A stretch of DNA of 40,290 nt from Candidatus Woesearchaeota archaeon (lineage in GTDB: Archaea > Nanobdellota > Nanobdellia > Pacearchaeales > GW2011-AR1): assembly GCA_964561665.1 (NCBI GenBank), contig CAZLQA010000001.1, positions 1 through 40,290 of the forward strand, given 5' to 3'. The notes beneath the pieces were generated by a model. It was not told where the DNA came from and did no database searches. It worked only from the letters and a program-made list of their open reading frames with translations. The number at the start of each line of letters is the position of its first letter. The stretch's first letter is position 1. The translations under genes and the position numbers were made by a program. Below are positions 6,231 through 40,063 of the stretch, in pieces.

Positions 6231-6385
6231 GAGTCGACCTTGCTTGGAATTAATAGTTTAAATTTGTCCTCGCAAAGTCGCTCGGCTCATAATTTATGAA
6301 AAAATTAACAAAAAACCTGTTTTATGCTAACATTATTATCAATAAGCGAACGCAGTGAGCCTTTTGTATGACAAGCCTTGAAATC
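6231..6385 (+). repeat. Dispersed mosaic repeat, copy A
   Basis: It shares the exact 21-mer ggaattaatagtttaaatttg (6246-6266 = 14966-14986) and the exact 20-mer ataagcgaacgcagtgagcc (6342-6361 = 15119-15138) with copy B. The tail ttttgtatgacaag matches copy C. Confidence 0.8.
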
Positions 6386-7316: not shown

Positions 7317-7430
7317 TTTTTGTATTAATCATCTATTTCAAGTGATATTATCTGCAGTTTTTACATTAGAAATTTACATCAATATACGAACGACGAAGGA
7401 GTGAGCCATTTTGTATAATAAGTCAAAGCA
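7317..7430 (+). repeat. Dispersed mosaic repeat, copy C
   Basis: tttttgtattaatca..aagtgata.tatc.gc.gttttt matches copy D (9638-9683). The core aatatacgaacgacgaaggagtgagccat (7381-7409) is 28/29 identical to the reverse complement of 21944-21972 (copy F). Confidence 0.75.
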
Positions 7431-7580
7431 TTTCGGAAGTTTTTACACAAAACCATGAAAAGGGATAAGTATAAAAACTTTTGATGTTTGTTTTTTAATA
7501 AGAGGTGTGGTGTGTATGGCAAAAAAAAAGAAAGCAAAAAAGAAGAAATAACTATATTTTGAAACAAACTCTTTTTTATC

Positions 7581-9637: not shown

Positions 9638-9760
9638 TTTTTGTATTAATCAATTCCTTAAGTGATAATATCCGCGGTTTTTGTATTAACAACTTACATC
9701 AATTAGCGAACGAGTGAAAAGTTATTCAGTGCTTGGCGAAGCGTATGCCTAATCGCTTTT
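9638..9760 (+). repeat. Dispersed mosaic repeat, copy D
   Basis: The left part matches copy C. The core is ..acatcaattagcgaacgagtgaaa. The right part agttattcagtgcttggcgaagcgtatgcctaatcgctt matches the 53-bp tandem unit at 16670-16785. Confidence 0.8.
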
Positions 9761-9815
9761 GAACAAAGCCCTACAGCACAATAAATTTTAAAACCCGTTG
9801 AGATTTTTCTAATTC

Positions 9816-10658
9816 ATGTACAACAAATTCCTTATAGTTGCTAGCAAGAAAGACCCTGCAGGCGTGAACATAACAACGCAATTGAGCCAGTTCAGGAAAA
9901 ATCCGGTTATTCCCGATGCAAAGAAAGACGGAAAAGAGTTTGATTTCTATCTTGTTGAGGAAGAGATAATTTATACGGAAAACCTTAACATGGAAAAAAT
10001 AGGCAAGTATGATTTCGTAATTTTTGCCTCCAAGCACAGCTCTTCCGGCGAAGAAAAGAGAAAATCTCTTACAATTCATTCTCCCGGAAATTTCAGAAAC
10101 GCGCAGTTCGGGGGAGAAAAGGGAAAAGTTTGCAAAACCTCGGCAATGTTCCACAAACAGCTCTTTGAAAAACTGAATGAAACCGCAAAGAAGCATGATT
10201 TGAGAAATTATGACATAACCCTTGAAGTGACTCATCACGGCCCCTTGATTGACAAGCCGTGCCTGTTCATTGAAATAGGCCCCACAGAAACCGAATGGAA
10301 AAACAGAAGGGTGGGCTTTATTATGGCAGAGACAATTTACGAAACCATTTTTGGATTCAAGGAAAATCCATACAACGAAGTTGCGATAGCCATTGGAGGC
10401 CCGCATTACTGCCCAAACTTTAATAAAATTCAGGAAAATTCAAACCTTGCAATTTCGCACATCATTCCCCAGTATAATTTTCCGCTTACAGAGGAAATGG
10501 TTAAGGAAGCCGTGGAAAAAACTGAAGAGGAAATCGATTTGGCTGTTTTGGACTGGAAAGGACTCGGCAATTCGGAGCAGAGGAATGAAATTCTAAAAAT
10601 TCTAGACAGGTTATATATCAGGTATGAAAAGACGAGTGATGTCGGAAAGTCTAATTAA
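9816..10658 (+). CDS. dtdA: D-aminoacyl-tRNA deacylase, archaeal type (DTD2/DtdA)
   Basis: The IVASKKDPAGVNI, FASKHSS, EVTHHGP and IGGPHYCPNF motifs are characteristic of the archaeal tRNA_deacylase family. Confidence 0.85.
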   Translation: MYNKFLIVASKKDPAGVNITTQLSQFRKNPVIPDAKKDGKEFDFYLVEEEIIYTENLNMEKIGKYDFVIFASKHSSSGEEKRKSLTIHSPGNFRNAQFGGEKGKVCKTSAMFHKQLFEKLNETAKKHDLRNYDITLEVTHHGPLIDKPCLFIEIGPTETEWKNRRVGFIMAETIYETIFGFKENPYNEVAIAIGGPHYCPNFNKIQENSNLAISHIIPQYNFPLTEEMVKEAVEKTEEEIDLAVLDWKGLGNSEQRNEILKILDRLYIRYEKTSDVGKSN

Positions 10659-11331
10659 CAACTAACCCCCGCACAACCAACTCCTCAAAAAACAGCTTTT
10701 TTGAGTTTATCACCTTTGATTTATAGCCAAGTTTCTCGAAATTCACTTCTTTAGACAATGAGCTGGTTACAACAAATATTCTGCCGTTTTTGTTCAGGTA
10801 ATCCTTGGCATCTTTCAGGAATTTTATTGTTAATTCATTGCCTTTTTTTCCGCCTGTCGTGGCTATTTGCGAATCTTCTGGCTCTTTTTCATCCAAAGGC
10901 AGGTAAGGGGGATTAAAAATAATAATGTCAAATTTGCTTGGAAAAACTGCAATTCGCTCGCCTAAAGGCTCGCTAATTTGTCTCGCACTTTCGCGCTCGT
11001 TTTGATTTATTTGATAATCTCTCAACCTCATTAAGTTTTTTGTTATATTGGTTTGATGTGGGCAAAATCTAAAATTTTTAAACAAATCAGATTTTATACA
11101 ATTAAATCCCTTATCTTTGCAACATTTAACTGCATTTTCATTAATATCCGTTCCAAAAATATTCTCTTTTTTTACCCCAATGTTGAAGGCTGTCTGCAAC
11201 AAAATTCCCGAGCCAGAGCCGATTTCAAGAAGGTTAAGATTTGGATTTTTCTTCAGGATTTTAGGAATTTCTTTTTTAAGGGTTTCACTTAAAAGATAAG
11301 AATCTTCTGCAGGTTGATAGATTGAAATCAT
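10651..11331 (-). CDS. HemK/Mtq2-like SAM-dependent (glutamine-N5) methyltransferase carrying a ~45-aa internal insertion
   Basis: It has YQPAEDSYLLSE, GSGSGIL (motif I) and IIFNPPYLP (NPPY). I prefer the start at MISIYQP.. (11331), because the tracked N-terminus MNTVSLFKIKEIKQK lies in repeat copy H. Confidence 0.8.
   Translation of the reverse strand: MISIYQPAEDSYLLSETLKKEIPKILKKNPNLNLLEIGSGSGILLQTAFNIGVKKENIFGTDINENAVKCCKDKGFNCIKSDLFKNFRFCPHQTNITKNLMRLRDYQINQNERESARQISEPLGERIAVFPSKFDIIIFNPPYLPLDEKEPEDSQIATTGGKKGNELTIKFLKDAKDYLNKNGRIFVVTSSLSKEVNFEKLGYKSKVINSKKLFFEELVVRGLVVN
10936..11070 (+). repeat. Repeat-family-like sequence inserted in frame inside the Mtq2/HemK-like gene
   Basis: It encodes RFCPHQTNITKNLMRLRDYQINQNERESARQISEPLGERIAVFPS, between SDLFKNF and KFDIIIFNPPY. 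It shares ggctcgctaa (10966-10975 = 25277-25286) and ttttgatttatttgataatc / ctttgattcttgatgttaacc with the Trm5 insert. Confidence 0.5.
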
Positions 11332-11357
11332 TTTTTGTTTAATTTCTTTTATTTTAA

Positions 11358-11495
11358 AAAGGCTCACCGTGTTCACATATTGATTTAACTATTAATATAA
11401 AACTAACTTATTTTATGACTAATGCAGGATTTGTGCTATCATCTCATTAATTGCGAGAATTTATTCGAGCACATTTAAAGTAAGCCGAAGGCGAA
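11358..11495 (-). repeat. Dispersed mosaic repeat, copy H (inverted orientation, right end truncated at the cstA stop)
   Basis: aaggctcaccgtgttcacatatt.. matches copy F (atggctcactcc..gttcgtatatt). ..cattaattgcgag and aagccgaaggcgaaccatttta match F (gaagccgagataaggcgaaccaatttta). Confidence 0.7.
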
Positions 11496-14854: not shown

Positions 14855-14910
14855 TTTTAAACAAACCACTCATCTTTTAAAAATGTTGATATTTTTAATG
14901 ACTTTTGTTT

Positions 14911-15185
14911 AAGAAGCAGTTTCTGTTTAAAGTGGTTTGCCTTATCTCTTCTCCCGACCCCGCTCGGAATTAATAGTTTAAATTTGCCATTCGCAAAGTC
15001 GCTCTACTCGCACCCGCACTCATTATTAACTAAAAATTGCCTCGTGCAAATGCTCGGCTCACAATTGATGAAAAATTAACTAATAGAAAAACAACTTTTA
15101 TATTAACAACCTTTACCGATAAGCGAACGCAGTGAGCCATCTCATTTAATAATTTAATAAAAATAAGTAAGTTCTAAACAAAGCC
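14911..15185 (+). repeat. Dispersed mosaic repeat, copy B (longest copy, contains an internal module duplication)
   Basis: It carries all the modules: left end aagcagtttctgtttaaagtggtttgcc, ggaattaatagtttaaatttg, tcgcaaagtcgctc / tcgtgcaaatgctcggctcacaattgatgaaaaattaac, ttttatattaacaa..ataagcgaacgcagtgagcc, and right end aaaataagtaagttctaaacaaagcc. Confidence 0.85.
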
Positions 15186-15230
15186 TATTCTAATGATTTT
15201 AAAATCATTAAAGCATCTCCCTTTCTCATT

Positions 15231-16639: not shown

Positions 16640-16790
16640 TTAAATTTAATCAAGCCTCTCGCTGTCGTTCGCTTATTGGTGAAGTTCTAGTTATTCAGTG
16701 TCTGCCGAAGCGTATGGCTAATCGCTTATTGGTAAAATCCTAGTTATTCAGTGTCTGCCGAAGCGTATGGCTAATCGCTTAATGATATAA
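16640..16790. repeat. Dispersed mosaic repeat, copy E, including a 53-bp tandem array (2.2 units, 16670-16785)
   Basis: The unit cgcttattggt[g/a]aa[g/a]t[t/c]ctagttattcagtgtctgccgaagcgtatggctaat starts at 16670, 16723 and 16776. It is preceded by cctctcgctgtcgttcgcttatt, an inverted version of the ..gcgaacgacg..gagtgagcc core. Confidence 0.8.
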
Positions 16791-21886: not shown

Positions 21887-21897
21887 GAACAGCAATA

Positions 21898-22055
21898 TGG
21901 CTTTGTTAAAAAAATTCCAAATTGATTTGGTTTGTTAAAAAAAATGGCTCACTCCTCCGTCGTTCGTATATTAATAACAATTTTAATCCAAACCTAGTTA
22001 TTTTTTCATCAATTGTGAAGCCGAGATAAGGCGAACCAATTTTAAACAGAAACTC
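21898..22055 (-). repeat. Dispersed mosaic repeat, copy F (inverted orientation, both ends present)
   Basis: ggctttgttaaaaaaa.. is the inverted right end. atggctcactcctccgtcgttcgtatatt is the inverted core (28/29 to copy C). tagttattttttcatcaattgtgaagccgag is the inverse of ctcggctcacaattgatgaaaaattaacta. taaggcgaaccaattttaaacagaaac is the inverted left end of copy B. Confidence 0.8.
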
Positions 22056-22111
22056 TTATCAGACAAAATTACAATAATAAACTATTAAAACATCTCTCTC
22101 TATTCCCTATT

Positions 22112-24217: not shown

Positions 24218-24508
24218 ATGAGATTAGAAGATATTAAACTGCCTGAAACGGCTACCGAAAAAGAACTTCTTGGGTTAGGAGCAATAAAAAAAGGAGATAT
24301 TTTCTTTTATGAAGACGGAATTAATGGGGTAACTGCAGGATGGAGAAGAGGAAGTGATGGCACTTATTACCTTTCCTATAAAGGAGTAGTTTCACAACCC
24401 AATCTAGAAAGTTCCGGAAGTCCAACAGGAAAGGAGATATATCCTCTAAGAAAACCTCCTGAATTCAAAGAAGACCAAAGGGAGCCAACAAAAAAACGCC
24501 CATTTTAA
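24218..24508 (+). CDS. Small soluble protein, paralog 1 of a tandem triplet (96 aa)
   Basis: IKLPETATEKELLGLGAIKKGDIFFYEDGINGVTAGWRR... There is a 1-nt gap to the previous gene. Confidence 0.55.
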   Translation: MRLEDIKLPETATEKELLGLGAIKKGDIFFYEDGINGVTAGWRRGSDGTYYLSYKGVVSQPNLESSGSPTGKEIYPLRKPPEFKEDQREPTKKRPF

Positions 24509-24509
24509 A

Positions 24510-24722
24510 ATGAACCTTGAAAAATCCTCAGAAGAAAGCATGGAAAAAGTTCCCAGAACAGCAACGGCAAGAGACCTTTTAAAATTAGGAGCAAGAATAA
24601 TAAATGTCTTAGGTGATAGAGCATATCAGGATTCTAAAACATACGCGATAGTTGTTTTTAAAAAAATTAAAGGTGGGGTTTACGAAAGGATTTTTGTCGG
24701 AACTCCAAGCCATCATGACTAA
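24510..24722 (+). CDS. Small soluble protein, paralog 2 of the tandem triplet (70 aa)
   Basis: KVPRTATARDLLKLGARIINVLGDRAYQDSKTYAIVVFKK... There is a 1-nt gap to paralog 1. Confidence 0.55.
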   Translation: MNLEKSSEESMEKVPRTATARDLLKLGARIINVLGDRAYQDSKTYAIVVFKKIKGGVYERIFVGTPSHHD

Positions 24723-24743
24723 TCATAAAATATTAAATCAAAA

Positions 24744-24995
24744 ATGAGCTCAAAAAGTTTGGAAAAAACAAGCAAATCTTCCAGAGTGGTTAAATTGCCT
24801 CAAATATCCACAGAAGAACAACTTCTTGGATTAGGCGCTGTAAGAGACGGTTACGGAATGAAATATGAAAATCCTGCTTTAGGTGTGATTGTATATTGGA
24901 GAAGATTATTAAATGAAAGAAATGAAAGTTTAGAAGCCACAAACTTATATGTATTTTCTCATCAAGAACCTATGAAAAAAAGCACTCTCCACTAA
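24744..24995 (+). CDS. Small soluble protein, paralog 3 of the tandem triplet (83 aa)
   Basis: VKLPQISTEEQLLGLGAVRDGYGMKYENPALGVIVYWRR... DNA-level similarity to paralog 1 is visible (caacttcttggattaggcgct vs gaacttcttgggttaggagca). Confidence 0.55.
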   Translation: MSSKSLEKTSKSSRVVKLPQISTEEQLLGLGAVRDGYGMKYENPALGVIVYWRRLLNERNESLEATNLYVFSHQEPMKKSTLH

Positions 24996-25889
24996 CTATA
25001 AAATCTTCAAGTCAACCCTTACCCTGAATTTGTAAGGCGCAATTTCACCCGCTTTTTTGAAATTAAGGATTTTAATTTTCTTTTTTGATTTTTTTGCTTC
25101 ATCAAGAATTCTTTCCCTAACAGAATCAATCTCGTCATCCTTTGCAAAATCATAGTAAAAAATCCTTGTCCCTTTTTTGCTTAAGAAAAAAGCCTCTTTA
25201 AGAAAACTTTCCTTCAACTGGGGACGGGGCATAACAATCACGTCGTATTTTTTTGGGATTTCCTGCAAGTTTAATCGGCTCGCTAACACTCGCCTATTTC
25301 TTTGATTCTTGATGTTAACCATCTGATTTGTTTTTTTATCAACATAATTCTTACCAATCTGCGAATGTGAATAAGCGGCTAATCTCTTAACACCTCCCTG
25401 AATCACCTGAACCTTATCCTCAACTTTATTCAGCTTAGAATTAAGCTTCGCATACCTGCCCGCTTCTCTATTAATCTCGATGCTTGTAACTTTCCCCGCA
25501 GGCGAATTTCTTGCAATGACAATTCCATAAGGATTTATACCCGAAAACATCACAAGCACGTTCTCGTTTCTTTTTATTTTTCCGGAGATTTCCGCCCTCT
25601 CGCTGCTTAACCTAGGGGAGAAGTATGTTGAATCCACATTAAACCTGAAAATGCATCCGTTTTCCCTGTAAAGAGCTTCTTTTGTCTTAACACCAAGAAT
25701 CCACCTCGTTTTCTGCTTTCTCAAACGTCCTTTAAATCGCGAGGTTTTCTCAAGAACTGTCCTTACAGACTTATACTGCCTAAGGATTTTTTCGGCTATT
25801 TTTTTCTTTTCATTTGCCTTTGATTCTCTTGGAAATTTTAAAATTGCAATATTTCCCATAATGTCAATTCCCGATGGTTTTTTGCCCAT
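24996..25889 (-). CDS. Trm5/Taw2-like (Met-10+) tRNA methyltransferase carrying a ~43-aa internal insertion
   Basis: It has IDIMGNIAILKF, FRFNVDSTYFSPRLSSER, VLVMFSGINPYGI (SAM motif I region) and DVIVMPRP (the NLP-type motif IV position). Confidence 0.8.
   Translation of the reverse strand: MGKKPSGIDIMGNIAILKFPRESKANEKKKIAEKILRQYKSVRTVLEKTSRFKGRLRKQKTRWILGVKTKEALYRENGCIFRFNVDSTYFSPRLSSERAEISGKIKRNENVLVMFSGINPYGIVIARNSPAGKVTSIEINREAGRYAKLNSKLNKVEDKVQVIQGGVKRLAAYSHSQIGKNYVDKKTNQMVNIKNQRNRRVLASRLNLQEIPKKYDVIVMPRPQLKESFLKEAFFLSKKGTRIFYYDFAKDDEIDSVRERILDEAKKSKKKIKILNFKKAGEIAPYKFRVRVDLKIL
25254..25382 (+). repeat. Repeat-family-like sequence inserted in frame inside the Trm5-like gene
   Basis: On the + strand, ..cggctcgctaacactcgcc..tttgattcttgatgttaacc..tgtttttttatcaacataattcttaccaatctgcgaatgtgaataagcgg aligns at roughly 70 percent by eye with copies A and B (ggctca..atttatgaaaaaattaac..tgttttatgctaacattattatcaataagcgaacgcagtgagcc). 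Confidence 0.55.
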
Positions 25890-39801: not shown

Positions 39802-39868
39802 GGAACTTTTTGTCCATTATAATTTAAAAACATTTGTATCTTTTTCAGGATATAACAGGATTTGTTTT

Positions 39869-40063
39869 AACAAGCAGTTTCTTTTTGAAATGTCTCGCCT
39901 CTCGGCTTCGCAATTAATGAAAGAATTAACTAACTAAAAACCAACTTGTCTTGTACTAACATTTAAAGGAAAGGTTAAGCGAAGGAAACCTTGGTGTCCT
40001 CGCTATGCGAACGAAGTGAGCATTTTTCAACAATCAAAAATAAGTATTTTCTAAACAGGACTG
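39869..40063 (+). repeat. Dispersed mosaic repeat, copy G (both ends present)
   Basis: The left end is aacaagcagtttctttttgaaatg. It also carries ctcggcttcgcaattaatgaaagaattaactaac, the core tatgcgaacgaagtgagca, and the right end aaaaataagtattttctaaacaggactg. The right end reverse-complemented (cagtcctgtttagaaaat) resembles the left end (cagtttctttttgaaatg). Confidence 0.8.

What the first reader, a model, noticed from the sequence alone, without database searches (positions are those of the whole stretch)
10936..11070. Second in-frame repeat-like insertion, in the Mtq2/HemK-like methyltransferase, encoding a peptide homologous to the Trm5 insert
About 45 residues (RFCPHQTNITKNLMRLRDYQINQNERESARQISEPLGERIAVFPS) are intercalated between SDLFKNF and KFDIIIFNPPY. 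This is the same structural loop, just before the motif-IV strand of the Rossmann-fold MTase, as in the Trm5-like gene. The DNA shares an exact 10-mer (ggctcgctaa) and collinear blocks with the Trm5 insert. The two inserts are read in the same relative frame, giving related peptides (..INQ-NERESARQISEPL vs ..VNIKNQRN-RRVLASRL). GC-rich tcgc/cgctcg motifs typical of the intergenic repeats occur here in an otherwise AT-rich gene.
Basis: partly seen in the sequence, partly recalled or inferred. Interest (0 to 1): 0.75.

Follow-up and report, generated by a model that had tools for sequence, protein, structure and literature searches.

The report
In-frame insert in archaeal Mtq2 methyltransferase
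A small archaeal (Pacearchaeota) protein methyltransferase gene carries a real, translated 45-codon insertion in a surface loop; relatives carry pieces of mobile intergenic repeat DNA in this same loop, but this copy cannot be firmly matched to any repeat.

Summary
Window 10936-11070 (minus strand) is a 135-nt, in-frame, stop-free insertion in an otherwise intact Mtq2/HemK2-family methyltransferase. It lies between motif III (SDLF) and strand beta4/motif IV (NPPY). 108 of 119 homologues have 12-15 residues there; this protein has 55. The insert is DNA-identical in every strain variant recovered, from at least 27 contigs in several sources. It occupies the same topological loop as the insert in the window's Trm5-like gene.

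The claimed homology to the Trm5 insert and to the intergenic repeats fails the direct tests (pairwise alignment with shuffles, nhmmer with repeat profiles, a peptide search of 1.84 billion proteins). Only weak signals remain, at p about 0.001-0.05: shared CG-rich words, one exact 10-mer, and a low-quality match to a profile of other Trm5 inserts.

Comparative data still support the gist. In other Pacearchaeota this loop in both Mtq2 and Trm5 holds short GC-rich elements. Some are clearly homologous to this window's intergenic repeats. One 36-nt hairpin is 35/36 identical between an Mtq2 and a Trm5 gene.

Best reading (about 0.55): a decayed, translated, tolerated repeat-derived insertion, analogous to Rickettsia palindromic elements. 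Main rival (about 0.3): an unrelated lineage-specific loop expansion.

The parts
10651..11331 (-). Mtq2/HemK2-family protein (release factor glutamine) methyltransferase gene, 226 aa from the ATG at 11331. Gene callers extend it to the GTG at 11376 (241 aa).
   Evidence: TIGR00537 111 bits, above the cutoff of 87. Pfam MTS/Eco57I. 1405 homologues, mostly 180-186 aa. AF2 core pLDDT >90. Foldseek top hits are N6AMT1/Mtq2.
10936..11070 (-). The insert: 135 nt = 45 codons, in frame, no stop codon. Encodes RFCPHQTNITKNLMRLRDYQINQNERESARQISEPLGERIAVFPS.
   Evidence: Absent from 108/119 homologues. DNA-identical in all strain variants. No similar peptide among 1.84e9 representative proteins. pLDDT 52-65, predicted helix at residues 93-114 followed by coil.
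10945..11000 (-). CG-rich 3' half of the insert, with four GCGAG (coding strand) / CTCGC-type words spaced about 12-13 nt apart. Contains TTAGCGAGCC, the 10-mer shared with the Trm5 insert.
   Evidence: It is the only place in the window with >=3 CTCGC/GCGAG words in 60 nt. The 10-mer is unique to the two inserts. CG-word sharing with the repeats has p about 0.01. TRF finds no tandem repeat.
11001..11070 (-). A-rich 5' half of the insert; encodes most of the predicted helix.
   Evidence: Sequence and AF2 secondary structure. This part carries the weak hit of the type C Trm5-insert DNA profile (11056-10986, E=1.9, low posterior).
11080..11091 (-). Motif III codons (SDLF), at the end of strand beta3, immediately upstream of the insert.
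   Evidence: Invariant S81/L83/F84 in alignments A2 and A4.
10903..10914 (-). Motif IV codons (NPPY), the catalytic motif, intact. It is preceded by beta4 (KFDIIIF), which starts right after the insert.
   Evidence: Invariant N140, P141, P142, Y143. Aligned to N6AMT1 NPPY.
11206..11226 (-). Motif I codons (EIGSGSG), the SAM-binding loop, intact.
   Evidence: Invariant E36, G38, G40, G42.
11342..11413 (-). Copy of intergenic repeat module Y, directly upstream of and overlapping the annotated 5' extension of the gene. Contains a TATA-like TTTATATTAA about 62-71 nt upstream of the ATG at 11331.
   Evidence: nhmmer Y profile E=1.7e-11.
10770..10859 (-). A 90-nt tract that differs at 25 positions between strain variants; the rest of the gene is identical. 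Probably a recombination tract.
   Evidence: L139, L140 and L141 against the window.
25254..25379 (-). Comparison object: the 42-codon insert in the Trm5-like gene (24996-25889), in the same motif III to beta4 loop. It has imperfect terminal inverted repeats.
   Evidence: PDB alignment gap: query residues 163-209 against chain residues 252-256. RNA fold z=-1.74. Y profile E=0.38 on the + strand. It belongs to a widespread Trm5 insert family (protein profile 11.4 bits).
6235..6377 (+). Reference copy of the intergenic X-Y repeat element. Other copies: 7317-7456, 9638-9775, 14903-15190, 16660-16790, 21894-22093(-), 39860-40057.
   Evidence: Self-BLAST E from 1e-5 to 1e-16. Alignment A1. nhmmer profiles.

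Best explanation
The segment is a lineage-specific, in-frame and translated insertion in the beta3-beta4 loop (motif III to motif IV) of a functional Mtq2/HemK2 methyltransferase of a Pacearchaeota (DPANN) archaeon. It most likely began as a copy of the short GC-rich, partly palindromic repeat DNA that populates intergenic regions of these genomes. It landed just 5' of the AAATTTGAY (Lys-Phe-Asp) codons that open strand beta4, happened to keep the reading frame open, and was retained because this loop tolerates extra residues. It has since decayed beyond secure recognition. The protein is made with a polar helix-plus-linker excrescence on an intact Rossmann core.

Shown: the insertion is real, fixed in the population, in frame, and sits in the same loop as the Trm5 insert. 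The catalytic motifs and the fold are intact. Relatives carry demonstrably repeat-derived or shared elements at exactly this site in both MTase families.

Inferred: the repeat origin of this particular copy, its translation, and its neutrality.
For: Anatomy and fixation.

The loop is a recurrent landing site. 11 of 119 Mtq2 homologues have inserts there, in scattered lineages whose nearest relatives lack them. P0010 and P0018, which carry the module, are 97-98% identical outside the loop to P0023, which lacks it. More than half of the 120 closest Trm5 homologues carry inserts of 10-60 aa at the equivalent site.

Those inserts are repeat DNA. The P0029 Mtq2 insert is 45% GC in a gene that is otherwise 22% GC. 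It shares an exact 17-mer with window repeat X (blastn-short E=2.9e-4) and aligns to X copies with nhmmer E=1.2e-4 and 0.036. The left end of the P0147 Trm5 insert is hit by the Y profile at E=0.001. The P0201 Trm5 insert contains the X core.

One module crosses gene families. GGAGGGGTTAGTGTAAGGGGAA[A/C]CTTGGTGCCCCTC is 35/36 identical between an Mtq2 gene (P0073) and a Trm5 gene (P0232). By eye, a diverged copy lies nested in the intergenic repeat at window 39975-40012; a search for the module's 18-nt core allowing 4 substitutions did not detect it.

Weak direct signals for this insert: CG-word sharing with the repeats at p about 0.01 with CpG-matched controls; a unique CTCGC cluster; a shared 10-mer with the Trm5 insert; a DNA profile of three foreign Trm5 inserts ranks it third in the window, and 4/1000 shuffles and 1/1000 genomic windows score as well; Smith-Waterman against the P0147 insert, p about 0.013.

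Translation is favoured because all inserts seen are multiples of three and stop-free in AT-rich genomes. By my estimate, about 5% of random 45-codon stretches at this composition would be open in a given frame.
Against: No alignment-based test links this insert to any repeat copy, to the Trm5 insert, or to the P0029/P0078 inserts. A protein profile of 38 Trm5 inserts scores it at 0 bits. No other copy was found in about 58 kb of this genome, and no similar peptide among 1.84e9 proteins. The insert has no significant hairpin or terminal inverted repeat (fold z=-0.71), and its GC content is barely raised. The profile hit that is nominally significant is A-rich with low posterior probabilities. 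About ten tests were run, so p about 0.01 is fragile. No transposase, target-site duplication or donor copy was identified.
Confidence: 0.55

Rival explanations
1. This is a lineage-specific loop expansion unrelated to the repeat family or to the Trm5 insert. Random DNA was captured, or the loop grew by local duplication or slippage, in a loop that tolerates length change. The resemblance to the repeats would then be compositional only.
For: All direct homology tests are negative. The peptide is an orphan. The 3' half has an internal 12-13-nt periodicity of GCGAG words, which suggests local duplication. There are no terminal inverted repeats. Loop length is intrinsically variable in both MTase families.
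Against: TRF finds no tandem repeat. The CG words it is built from are those of the repeats more often than in CpG-matched controls. Every other insert at this site that could be traced is repeat-derived or a shared element. The exact 10-mer is confined to the two inserts.
Confidence: 0.3
2. Whatever its origin, the insert is kept because it is useful. It sits in the beta3-beta4 loop that in eukaryotic Mtq2 forms much of the Trm112 interface and contributes to SAM binding. It could replace or modify a Trm112-type partner, or shield the hydrophobic patch that Trm112 normally covers.
For: The Mtq2-Trm112 structure paper states that the beta3-beta4 loop is largely involved in the Trm112 interaction and in SAM binding (PMC3152332). 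The insert is invariant across strain variants while another part of the gene is mosaic.
Against: The strain variants are nearly clonal, so invariance carries no information on selection. Confidence in the model of the insert is low (pLDDT 52-65). Inserts at this site are heterogeneous in sequence and length and are absent from about 90% of Mtq2 homologues. Trm5, which to my knowledge does not use Trm112, has them too. The presence of Trm112 in this genome was not examined.
Confidence: 0.1
3. The segment is removed after transcription or translation, either as an archaeal bulge-helix-bulge intron in the mRNA (as in crenarchaeal cbf5) or as a mini-intein. The mature protein would then lack it.
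For: DPANN archaea have many unusual tRNA introns (own knowledge). The flanks AGATTTTGC and GCAAATTTGA can pair.
Against: A scan for hBHBh' motifs at both boundaries gives one A/T-only candidate against 0.84 expected by chance for Mtq2, and none for Trm5. All inserts seen at this site are 3n long and stop-free, which an excised RNA would not need. 45 residues lacking a nucleophile and the terminal HN are incompatible with an intein (sequence).
Confidence: 0.03
4. The insert is an assembly artefact or the gene is a decaying pseudogene.
For: None beyond the oddity of the insert.
Against: The same 241-aa product occurs in 8 sequence variants on at least 27 contigs from NCBI, ENA, JGI and Logan assemblies of different samples. 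The insert DNA is identical in the five independent contigs whose gene DNA was compared (L001, L139, L140, L141; L145 also carries it). The ORF is intact and motifs I, III and IV are intact.
Confidence: 0.02

Closest known systems
Rickettsia palindromic elements (RPEs; Ogata et al. 2000 and 2002, as summarised in the MITE review PMC10969869)
   Same: Short (about 100-150 bp) repeat DNA found both between genes and inside protein-coding genes. Copies are inserted in frame without stops, are translated as extra surface segments compatible with the fold, and occur in a reduced genome (for the description of RPEs).
   Different: RPE copies are recognisably similar to each other and encode a conserved peptide; this insert has no detectable sibling. 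The host is an archaeon (DPANN). Insertions are concentrated in one loop of two Rossmann MTase families rather than spread over unrelated genes, though only these two families were examined. No palindromic structure is detectable in this copy.
Prokaryotic MITEs / REP-type hairpin elements (non-autonomous mobile repeats)
   Same: The window's X-Y-Z repeats and the 36-nt type A module are short, GC-rich relative to the genome, partly palindromic and multi-copy. They show nesting (type A apparently sits inside a Y copy at 39975-40012) and copy-number change between strains. All four type A copies inspected follow T[TC]AAA (read by eye from the sequences), which is reminiscent of IS200/IS605-type target choice (own knowledge).
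   Different: No transposase, terminal inverted repeat/target-site duplication pair or transposition event was identified. The target-site pattern rests on four copies. Membership of the Mtq2 insert itself is unproven.
Mtq2/HemK2 (N6AMT1)-Trm112 holoenzyme
   Same: The host protein has the family's sequence signature, NPPY motif and fold.
   Different: It carries a 45-residue insertion in the beta3-beta4 loop, which in the E. cuniculi complex contacts Trm112 and SAM (PMC3152332). Whether a Trm112 partner exists or can still bind here is unknown.
Archaeal bulge-helix-bulge introns in protein genes (cbf5 of Crenarchaeota)
   Same: An intervening sequence in an archaeal gene for a translation-related enzyme.
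   Different: No BHB motif above chance. The insert is in frame and open like all its counterparts, which argues for translation rather than splicing.

Membership tests
Mtq2/HemK2 protein methyltransferase (TIGR00537 hemK_rel_arch) | Profile score above the curated cutoff | tested here: met
   111.1 bits against a cutoff of 87. The match is split into two stretches by the insert.
Mtq2/HemK2 protein methyltransferase (TIGR00537 hemK_rel_arch) | Catalytic NPPY motif IV and GxGxG motif I in a class I Rossmann fold | tested here: met
   NPPY at residues 140-143 and EIGSGSG at 36-42 are invariant in the alignments. AF2 core pLDDT >90. Foldseek top hits are N6AMT1/HEMK2 and Mtq2, probability 1.00.
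Mtq2/HemK2 protein methyltransferase (TIGR00537 hemK_rel_arch) | Methylates the GGQ glutamine of aRF1/eRF1; works with Trm112 | not testable with these tools
   Needs biochemistry. Trm112 was not searched for because only about 58 kb of the genome was accessible.
RPE-like / MITE-derived in-frame repeat insertion | Significant sequence similarity to other copies of a multi-copy element in the same genome | tested here: not met
   Repeat profiles X, Y and Z give no hit (E>100). The best Smith-Waterman score to a repeat sits at the 32% level of the null. No other copy in about 58 kb. Only word-level enrichment, p about 0.01.
RPE-like / MITE-derived in-frame repeat insertion | Palindromic structure or terminal inverted repeats | tested here: not met
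   RNA fold z=-0.71, with 47/200 shuffles as stable. For comparison, the Trm5 insert gives z=-1.74 with paired termini.
RPE-like / MITE-derived in-frame repeat insertion | Keeps the host reading frame open and sits at a surface site compatible with the fold | tested here: met
   135 nt, no stop. The model places it as a helix plus coil outside an intact core.
RPE-like / MITE-derived in-frame repeat insertion | The same element family is found in frame in other genes or orthologues | tested here: inconclusive
   True for the inserts of relatives (P0029 and P0078 for the X type; P0073, P0232 and P0147 for type A). For this insert there is only a weak, A-rich match to a profile of Trm5 inserts.
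Trm5-insert family of Pacearchaeota (type C: LS..P..K.VN..VRSL.IN.KNR.SDNERAIP) | Match to a profile of the inserts (protein or DNA) | tested here: inconclusive
   Protein profile: 0.0 bits, and 1143/2000 shuffles score as well. DNA profile: 2.6-2.8 bits, reached by 4/1000 shuffles and 1/1000 genomic windows, but with a poor alignment. The window's own Trm5 insert scores 11.4 bits on the protein profile.
Archaeal BHB intron | hBHBh' motif spanning the two boundaries | tested here: not met
   One A/T-only strict candidate against 0.84 expected by chance; relaxed motifs 20 against 17.6 expected.
Intein | N-terminal Cys/Ser, C-terminal His-Asn followed by Cys/Ser/Thr, and at least about 130 residues | tested here: not met
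   45 residues, starts with Arg-Phe, ends with Pro-Ser followed by Lys.

The most novel reading that the evidence does not exclude
Pacearchaeota (DPANN) may harbour an archaeal counterpart of the Rickettsia palindromic elements. These would be families of very short (about 36-150 nt) GC-rich hairpin or palindromic mobile repeats that live between genes. They would repeatedly enter, in frame and immediately 5' of the Lys-Phe-Asp codons of strand beta4, the beta3-beta4 loop of translation-related Rossmann methyltransferases (Mtq2 and Trm5). That loop is the one that binds Trm112 in Mtq2. The same module would move between the two gene families, possibly by an IS200/IS605- or REP-like single-strand mechanism that targets T[TC]AAA. 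The window's Mtq2 insert would be a decayed member, and the elements would be a continuing source of new protein segments in these reduced genomes.
Probability: 0.35. Interest if true: 0.75.

Novelty: new variant of a known kind. Interest (0 to 1): 0.55.

Why it matters
If the repeat origin holds, this would extend 'selfish DNA inside protein-coding genes', a phenomenon best known from Rickettsia, to ultrasmall DPANN archaea. It would also show an unusual concentration on one structural loop shared by two different methyltransferases of the translation apparatus.

That would give a concrete system for three questions: how mobile DNA creates new protein segments, how much insertion a Rossmann fold tolerates at the Trm112-binding loop, and whether these elements choose their target by DNA sequence or are merely filtered by selection.

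For annotation, such inserts split profile matches: TIGR00537, Pfam TRM5-TYW2_MTfase and the NCBIfam Trm5b model each match in two stretches here. The annotated start of this gene (GTG 11376) also appears to be extended into a repeat copy.

If the origin does not hold, this is an ordinary lineage-specific indel in a variable loop.

Tried and rejected
1. blastn-short of both inserts against the window gave only chance-level 9-13-mers.
2. Pairwise DNA and peptide alignment of the two inserts with shuffles was not significant.
3. nhmmer with profiles of repeat modules X, Y and Z (5-7 window copies) found no hit in the Mtq2 insert. The Trm5 insert scored only E=0.38.
4. nhmmer with each insert, or with a two-sequence profile, against the window, about 18 kb of extra genome and related loci found no further copy.
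5. The word-indexed protein search with the insert peptide returned nothing, not even the protein itself, so that tool is uninformative for a 51-aa query. Exhaustive phmmer against 1.84e9 representatives gave 0 hits.
6. The genome-contig scan with the GC-rich 17-mer GCCGAGCGACTTTGCGA returned only chance matches in high-GC bacteria.
7. The metagenome scan with GAGCGACTTTGCGAN{8,18}TAAACT gave one true relative (L136) among 16 stretches.
8. A protein profile of 38 Trm5 inserts scored the Mtq2 insert at 0 bits. My by-eye match (R.L..IN..NER..IP.KFD) is therefore not supported.
9. Strain variants offered no dN/dS information because the insert is DNA-identical in all of them.
10. Tandem Repeats Finder found nothing in the insert.
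11. Rfam at gathering threshold found only two tRNAs in the window, so the repeats are not a described RNA family.
12. BHB-intron and intein readings were rejected (sequence).
13. A 26-nt identity between two Trm5 inserts (P0141 and P0147) was considered as evidence of recent mobility. It was rejected because orthologous host regions share exact runs of 17-28 nt too.
14. The RsmB/F-type MTase in the window shows no comparable insert (one Pfam stretch, 213 residues against 199 model positions).
Full report
CONTEXT. The window (about 38% GC) carries archaeal informational genes: RFC subunits (named from L001), FEN1, DtdA-type deacylase, TrmB, and Arg/Ser tRNA synthetases, with the Ile synthetase also identified from L001. 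The named closest homologues of its proteins are from Candidatus Pacearchaeota / Nanoarchaeia, which are DPANN archaea. Independent contigs from several assemblies match it at 99.9%.

- The ORF 10651..11376(-) encodes an Mtq2/HemK2-type methyltransferase. TIGR00537 scores 111 bits against a cutoff of 87. The AlphaFold model has a core pLDDT above 90. Its best structural matches are human N6AMT1/HEMK2-TRMT112 and E. cuniculi Mtq2.
- Homologues begin at the ATG at 11331, so the true product is probably 226 aa. The 15-codon extension to the GTG at 11376 runs into a copy of intergenic repeat module Y (11342-11413, nhmmer E=1.7e-11).
- Among 119 homologues, the distance from SDLF (motif III) to NPPY (motif IV) is 12-15 residues in 108 proteins. 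It is 55 here. The extra 43-45 residues are encoded by 10936-11070, in frame and without stops.
- Alignments to solved structures show that this insert and the 42-codon insert of the window's Trm5-like gene (25254-25379) occupy the same topological position, between beta3/motif III and beta4/motif IV.
- The insert is not an artefact. Eight protein variants from at least 27 contigs (NCBI, ENA, JGI, Logan) all carry it. At the DNA level it is identical in the independent contigs compared.
- The only divergence in the gene is a 90-nt tract (10770-10859) with 25 differences, most simply a recombination tract.

ARE THE CLAIMED SIMILARITIES MORE THAN CHANCE? Mostly not, by direct tests.
- The exact 10-mer GGCTCGCTAA occurs only at 10967 and 25277. 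Against the whole window, 10-mers of this kind have E of about 4. Sharing one between these two specific 130-nt segments has, by my estimate, a chance of about 1%.
- Local DNA alignment of the two inserts is matched by 40% of shuffles with strict gap costs and by 5% with loose ones. The peptide alignment is matched by 81% of shuffles.
- nhmmer with either insert does not find the other.
- Profiles built from the window's repeat modules X, Y and Z find all intergenic copies (E from 1e-11 to 1e-21) but nothing in the Mtq2 insert. They find only E=0.38 in the Trm5 insert.
- The best Smith-Waterman score of the Mtq2 insert to any repeat copy is reached by 32% of random 135-nt windows.
- The peptide has no relative among 1.84 billion representative proteins.
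- No second copy exists in the roughly 58 kb of this genome that I could reach.
- Weak signals do survive. CG-containing 6- and 7-mers are shared with the repeats more than in CpG-matched control windows (p about 0.01-0.04). The window's only cluster of three CTCGC words lies in the insert.

WHAT THE RELATIVES SHOW. This changes the picture.

(a) Other Mtq2 homologues have different inserts at exactly this site.
- P0029 has +50 aa and P0078 has +27 aa (the same element with an internal deletion; Smith-Waterman 40 against a null of 11). Eight proteins have an 11-aa module of the form GGVSVRGNLVPL.
- The carriers are phylogenetically scattered and their nearest relatives lack inserts. P0010 and P0018 (with the module) are 97-98% identical outside the loop to P0023 (without it).

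(b) The P0029 insert is 45% GC in a gene that is otherwise 22% GC.
- It contains GCCGAGCGACTTTGCGA, an exact 17-mer of window repeat X (blastn-short E=2.9e-4).
- It aligns to X copies at 14945-15006 and 6236-6287 with nhmmer E=1.2e-4 and 0.036.
- So the repeat family of this window's intergenic regions does sit in frame in this loop in another Pacearchaeote.

(c) Trm5 homologues are even more striking.
- The equivalent segment ranges from 26 to 87 residues, and more than half of the 120 closest homologues carry inserts.
- The inserts show recurring motifs: GGVSVRGNLVPL, SDNERAIP, VRSL.IN.
- The left end of the P0147 insert is hit by the Y profile (E=0.001). P0201 contains the X core.

(d) The 36-nt module GGAGGGGTTAGTGTAAGGGGAA[A/C]CTTGGTGCCCCTC is 35/36 identical between an Mtq2 gene (P0073) and a Trm5 gene (P0232), from separately assembled contigs of different samples.
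- By eye, a diverged copy is nested in the intergenic Y copy at window 39975-40012; it shows as an insertion relative to the other Y copies in alignment A1. A search for the module's 18-nt core allowing four substitutions did not detect it.
- All four copies I inspected follow T[TC]AAA.

(e) The repeats are dynamic. Just outside the window, the 53-nt Z unit is present twice in one strain and once in another.

DOES THE WINDOW'S MTQ2 INSERT BELONG TO THESE ELEMENTS? I built a DNA profile from three foreign Trm5 inserts (P0141, P0201, P0147) as a test specified in advance.
- The Mtq2 insert is the third-best hit in the window, on the coding strand (11056-10986, E=1.9).
- Only 4/1000 dinucleotide shuffles and 1/1000 genomic windows score as well.
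- Smith-Waterman against the P0147 insert gives p of about 0.013.
- However, the alignment is A-rich with low posterior probabilities.
- A protein profile of 38 Trm5 inserts gives 0 bits. The window's own Trm5 insert scores 11.4 bits on that profile.
- About ten tests were run in total. I therefore treat membership as plausible but unproven.

MECHANISM. Every insert seen at this site (11 in Mtq2, more than 60 in Trm5) is a multiple of three and stop-free in AT-rich genomes. By my estimate, a random 45-codon stretch would be open only about 5% of the time. This argues that the inserts are translated and filtered by selection for an open frame.
- A scan for bulge-helix-bulge intron motifs at both boundaries is at chance level. 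The segment cannot be an intein.
- The model predicts a long helix (residues 93-114) followed by coil, at low confidence (pLDDT 52-65), projecting from an intact core.
- The beta3-beta4 loop is not an arbitrary site. [quoted passage not shown] The insert may therefore affect partner binding. This could not be tested here.

COMPARISON WITH KNOWN SYSTEMS. The closest analogue is the Rickettsia palindromic element. These are short repeats inserted in frame into many genes and translated as surface additions (review PMC10969869).
- This case resembles RPEs in being in frame and surface-tolerated, in the co-occurrence with intergenic repeats, and in the reduced host genome.
- It fails the defining tests of detectable similarity to sibling copies and of palindromic structure.
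- I therefore do not file this insert as a member. I propose that it arose and works like one.
- Two literature searches found no description of such elements in Pacearchaeota. That is absence of evidence only.

VERDICT. The insertion is real and fixed. The specific homology claims are not supported by direct statistics. The general interpretation, repeat-like DNA captured in frame in the same loop of two MTases, is made plausible by strong evidence from relatives and by weak evidence in the insert itself.
- Confidence in a repeat origin for this copy: about 0.55.
- Unrelated loop expansion: about 0.3.
- Primarily adaptive module: about 0.1.
- Removal after transcription or translation (splicing): about 0.03; assembly artefact or pseudogene: about 0.02.
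- Novelty: new variant of a known kind. Interest: 0.55.

Noticed in passing
window 6235-6377, 7317-7456, 9638-9775, 11342-11413(-), 14903-15190, 16660-16790, 21894-22093(-), 39860-40057: A modular intergenic repeat family made of X (..TCGCAAAGTCGCTCGGCTCA..), Y (TTTATATTAAC..ATCAATAAGCGAACGCAGTGAGCC) and Z (a 53-nt unit, two tandem copies at 16669-16774). There are about 10 copies in 58 kb and no Rfam match. One relative was found in a metagenome contig (L136). Y carries a TATA-like box and sometimes sits upstream of genes (Mtq2, DtdA), so it may supply promoters.
   Followed up: partly
L142 8474-8591 vs L143 (just beyond the right end of the window): The copy number of the 53-nt Z unit differs between strains of the same population: two copies against one, with the flanks otherwise identical. 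The repeats are currently unstable or active.
   Followed up: yes
window 39975-40012; L148 (P0073), L149 (P0232), L150 (P0147): A 36-nt GC-rich hairpin module (GGAGGGGTTAGTGTAAGGGGAACCTTGGTGCCCCTC, encoding GGVSVRGNLVPL) is nearly identical in an Mtq2 gene and in Trm5 genes of other Pacearchaeota. By eye, a diverged copy is nested inside a Y repeat in this window. All four copies follow T[TC]AAA, which hints at a sequence-specific insertion mechanism.
   Followed up: partly
window 10770-10859 (inside the Mtq2 gene): Strain variants (L139-L141) are identical to the window across the gene except for 25 substitutions packed into 90 nt. This looks like a short homologous-recombination tract from a diverged lineage.
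   Followed up: partly
window 24996-25889 (Trm5-like gene) and homologues P0128-P0247: The motif III to beta4 segment of Pacearchaeota Trm5 is hypervariable (26-87 residues) and more than half of homologues carry inserts. P0195 has three tandem copies of the 12-aa module. The window's Trm5 insert has imperfect terminal inverted repeats (fold z=-1.74).
   Followed up: partly
window 11332-11376: Gene callers start the Mtq2 gene at the GTG at 11376 (241 aa). All homologues start at the position of the ATG at 11331. The extra 15 codons overlap the Y repeat copy and are probably not translated.
   Followed up: partly
window 24220-24995: Three tandem small ORFs share a 61-nt repeat (24234, 24544, 24790; 62-74% identity) and encode related short proteins (..LPETATEKELLGLGA..). 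This looks like a small paralogous gene cluster of unknown function next to the Trm5 gene.
   Followed up: no
L144 (strain variant, region beyond the right end of the window): In one strain contig the topoisomerase I gene (767 aa elsewhere) is called as 555 + 220 aa and the MFS transporter (400 aa) as 91 + 309 aa. These are possible frameshifts or assembly errors.
   Followed up: no
L149 3618-6041 and L153 4031-6454 (other Pacearchaeota, next to their Trm5 genes): The HerA/DUF87-type ATPase gene next to Trm5 carries an intein with a LAGLIDADG domain in these relatives. The window's counterpart region was not checked.
   Followed up: no
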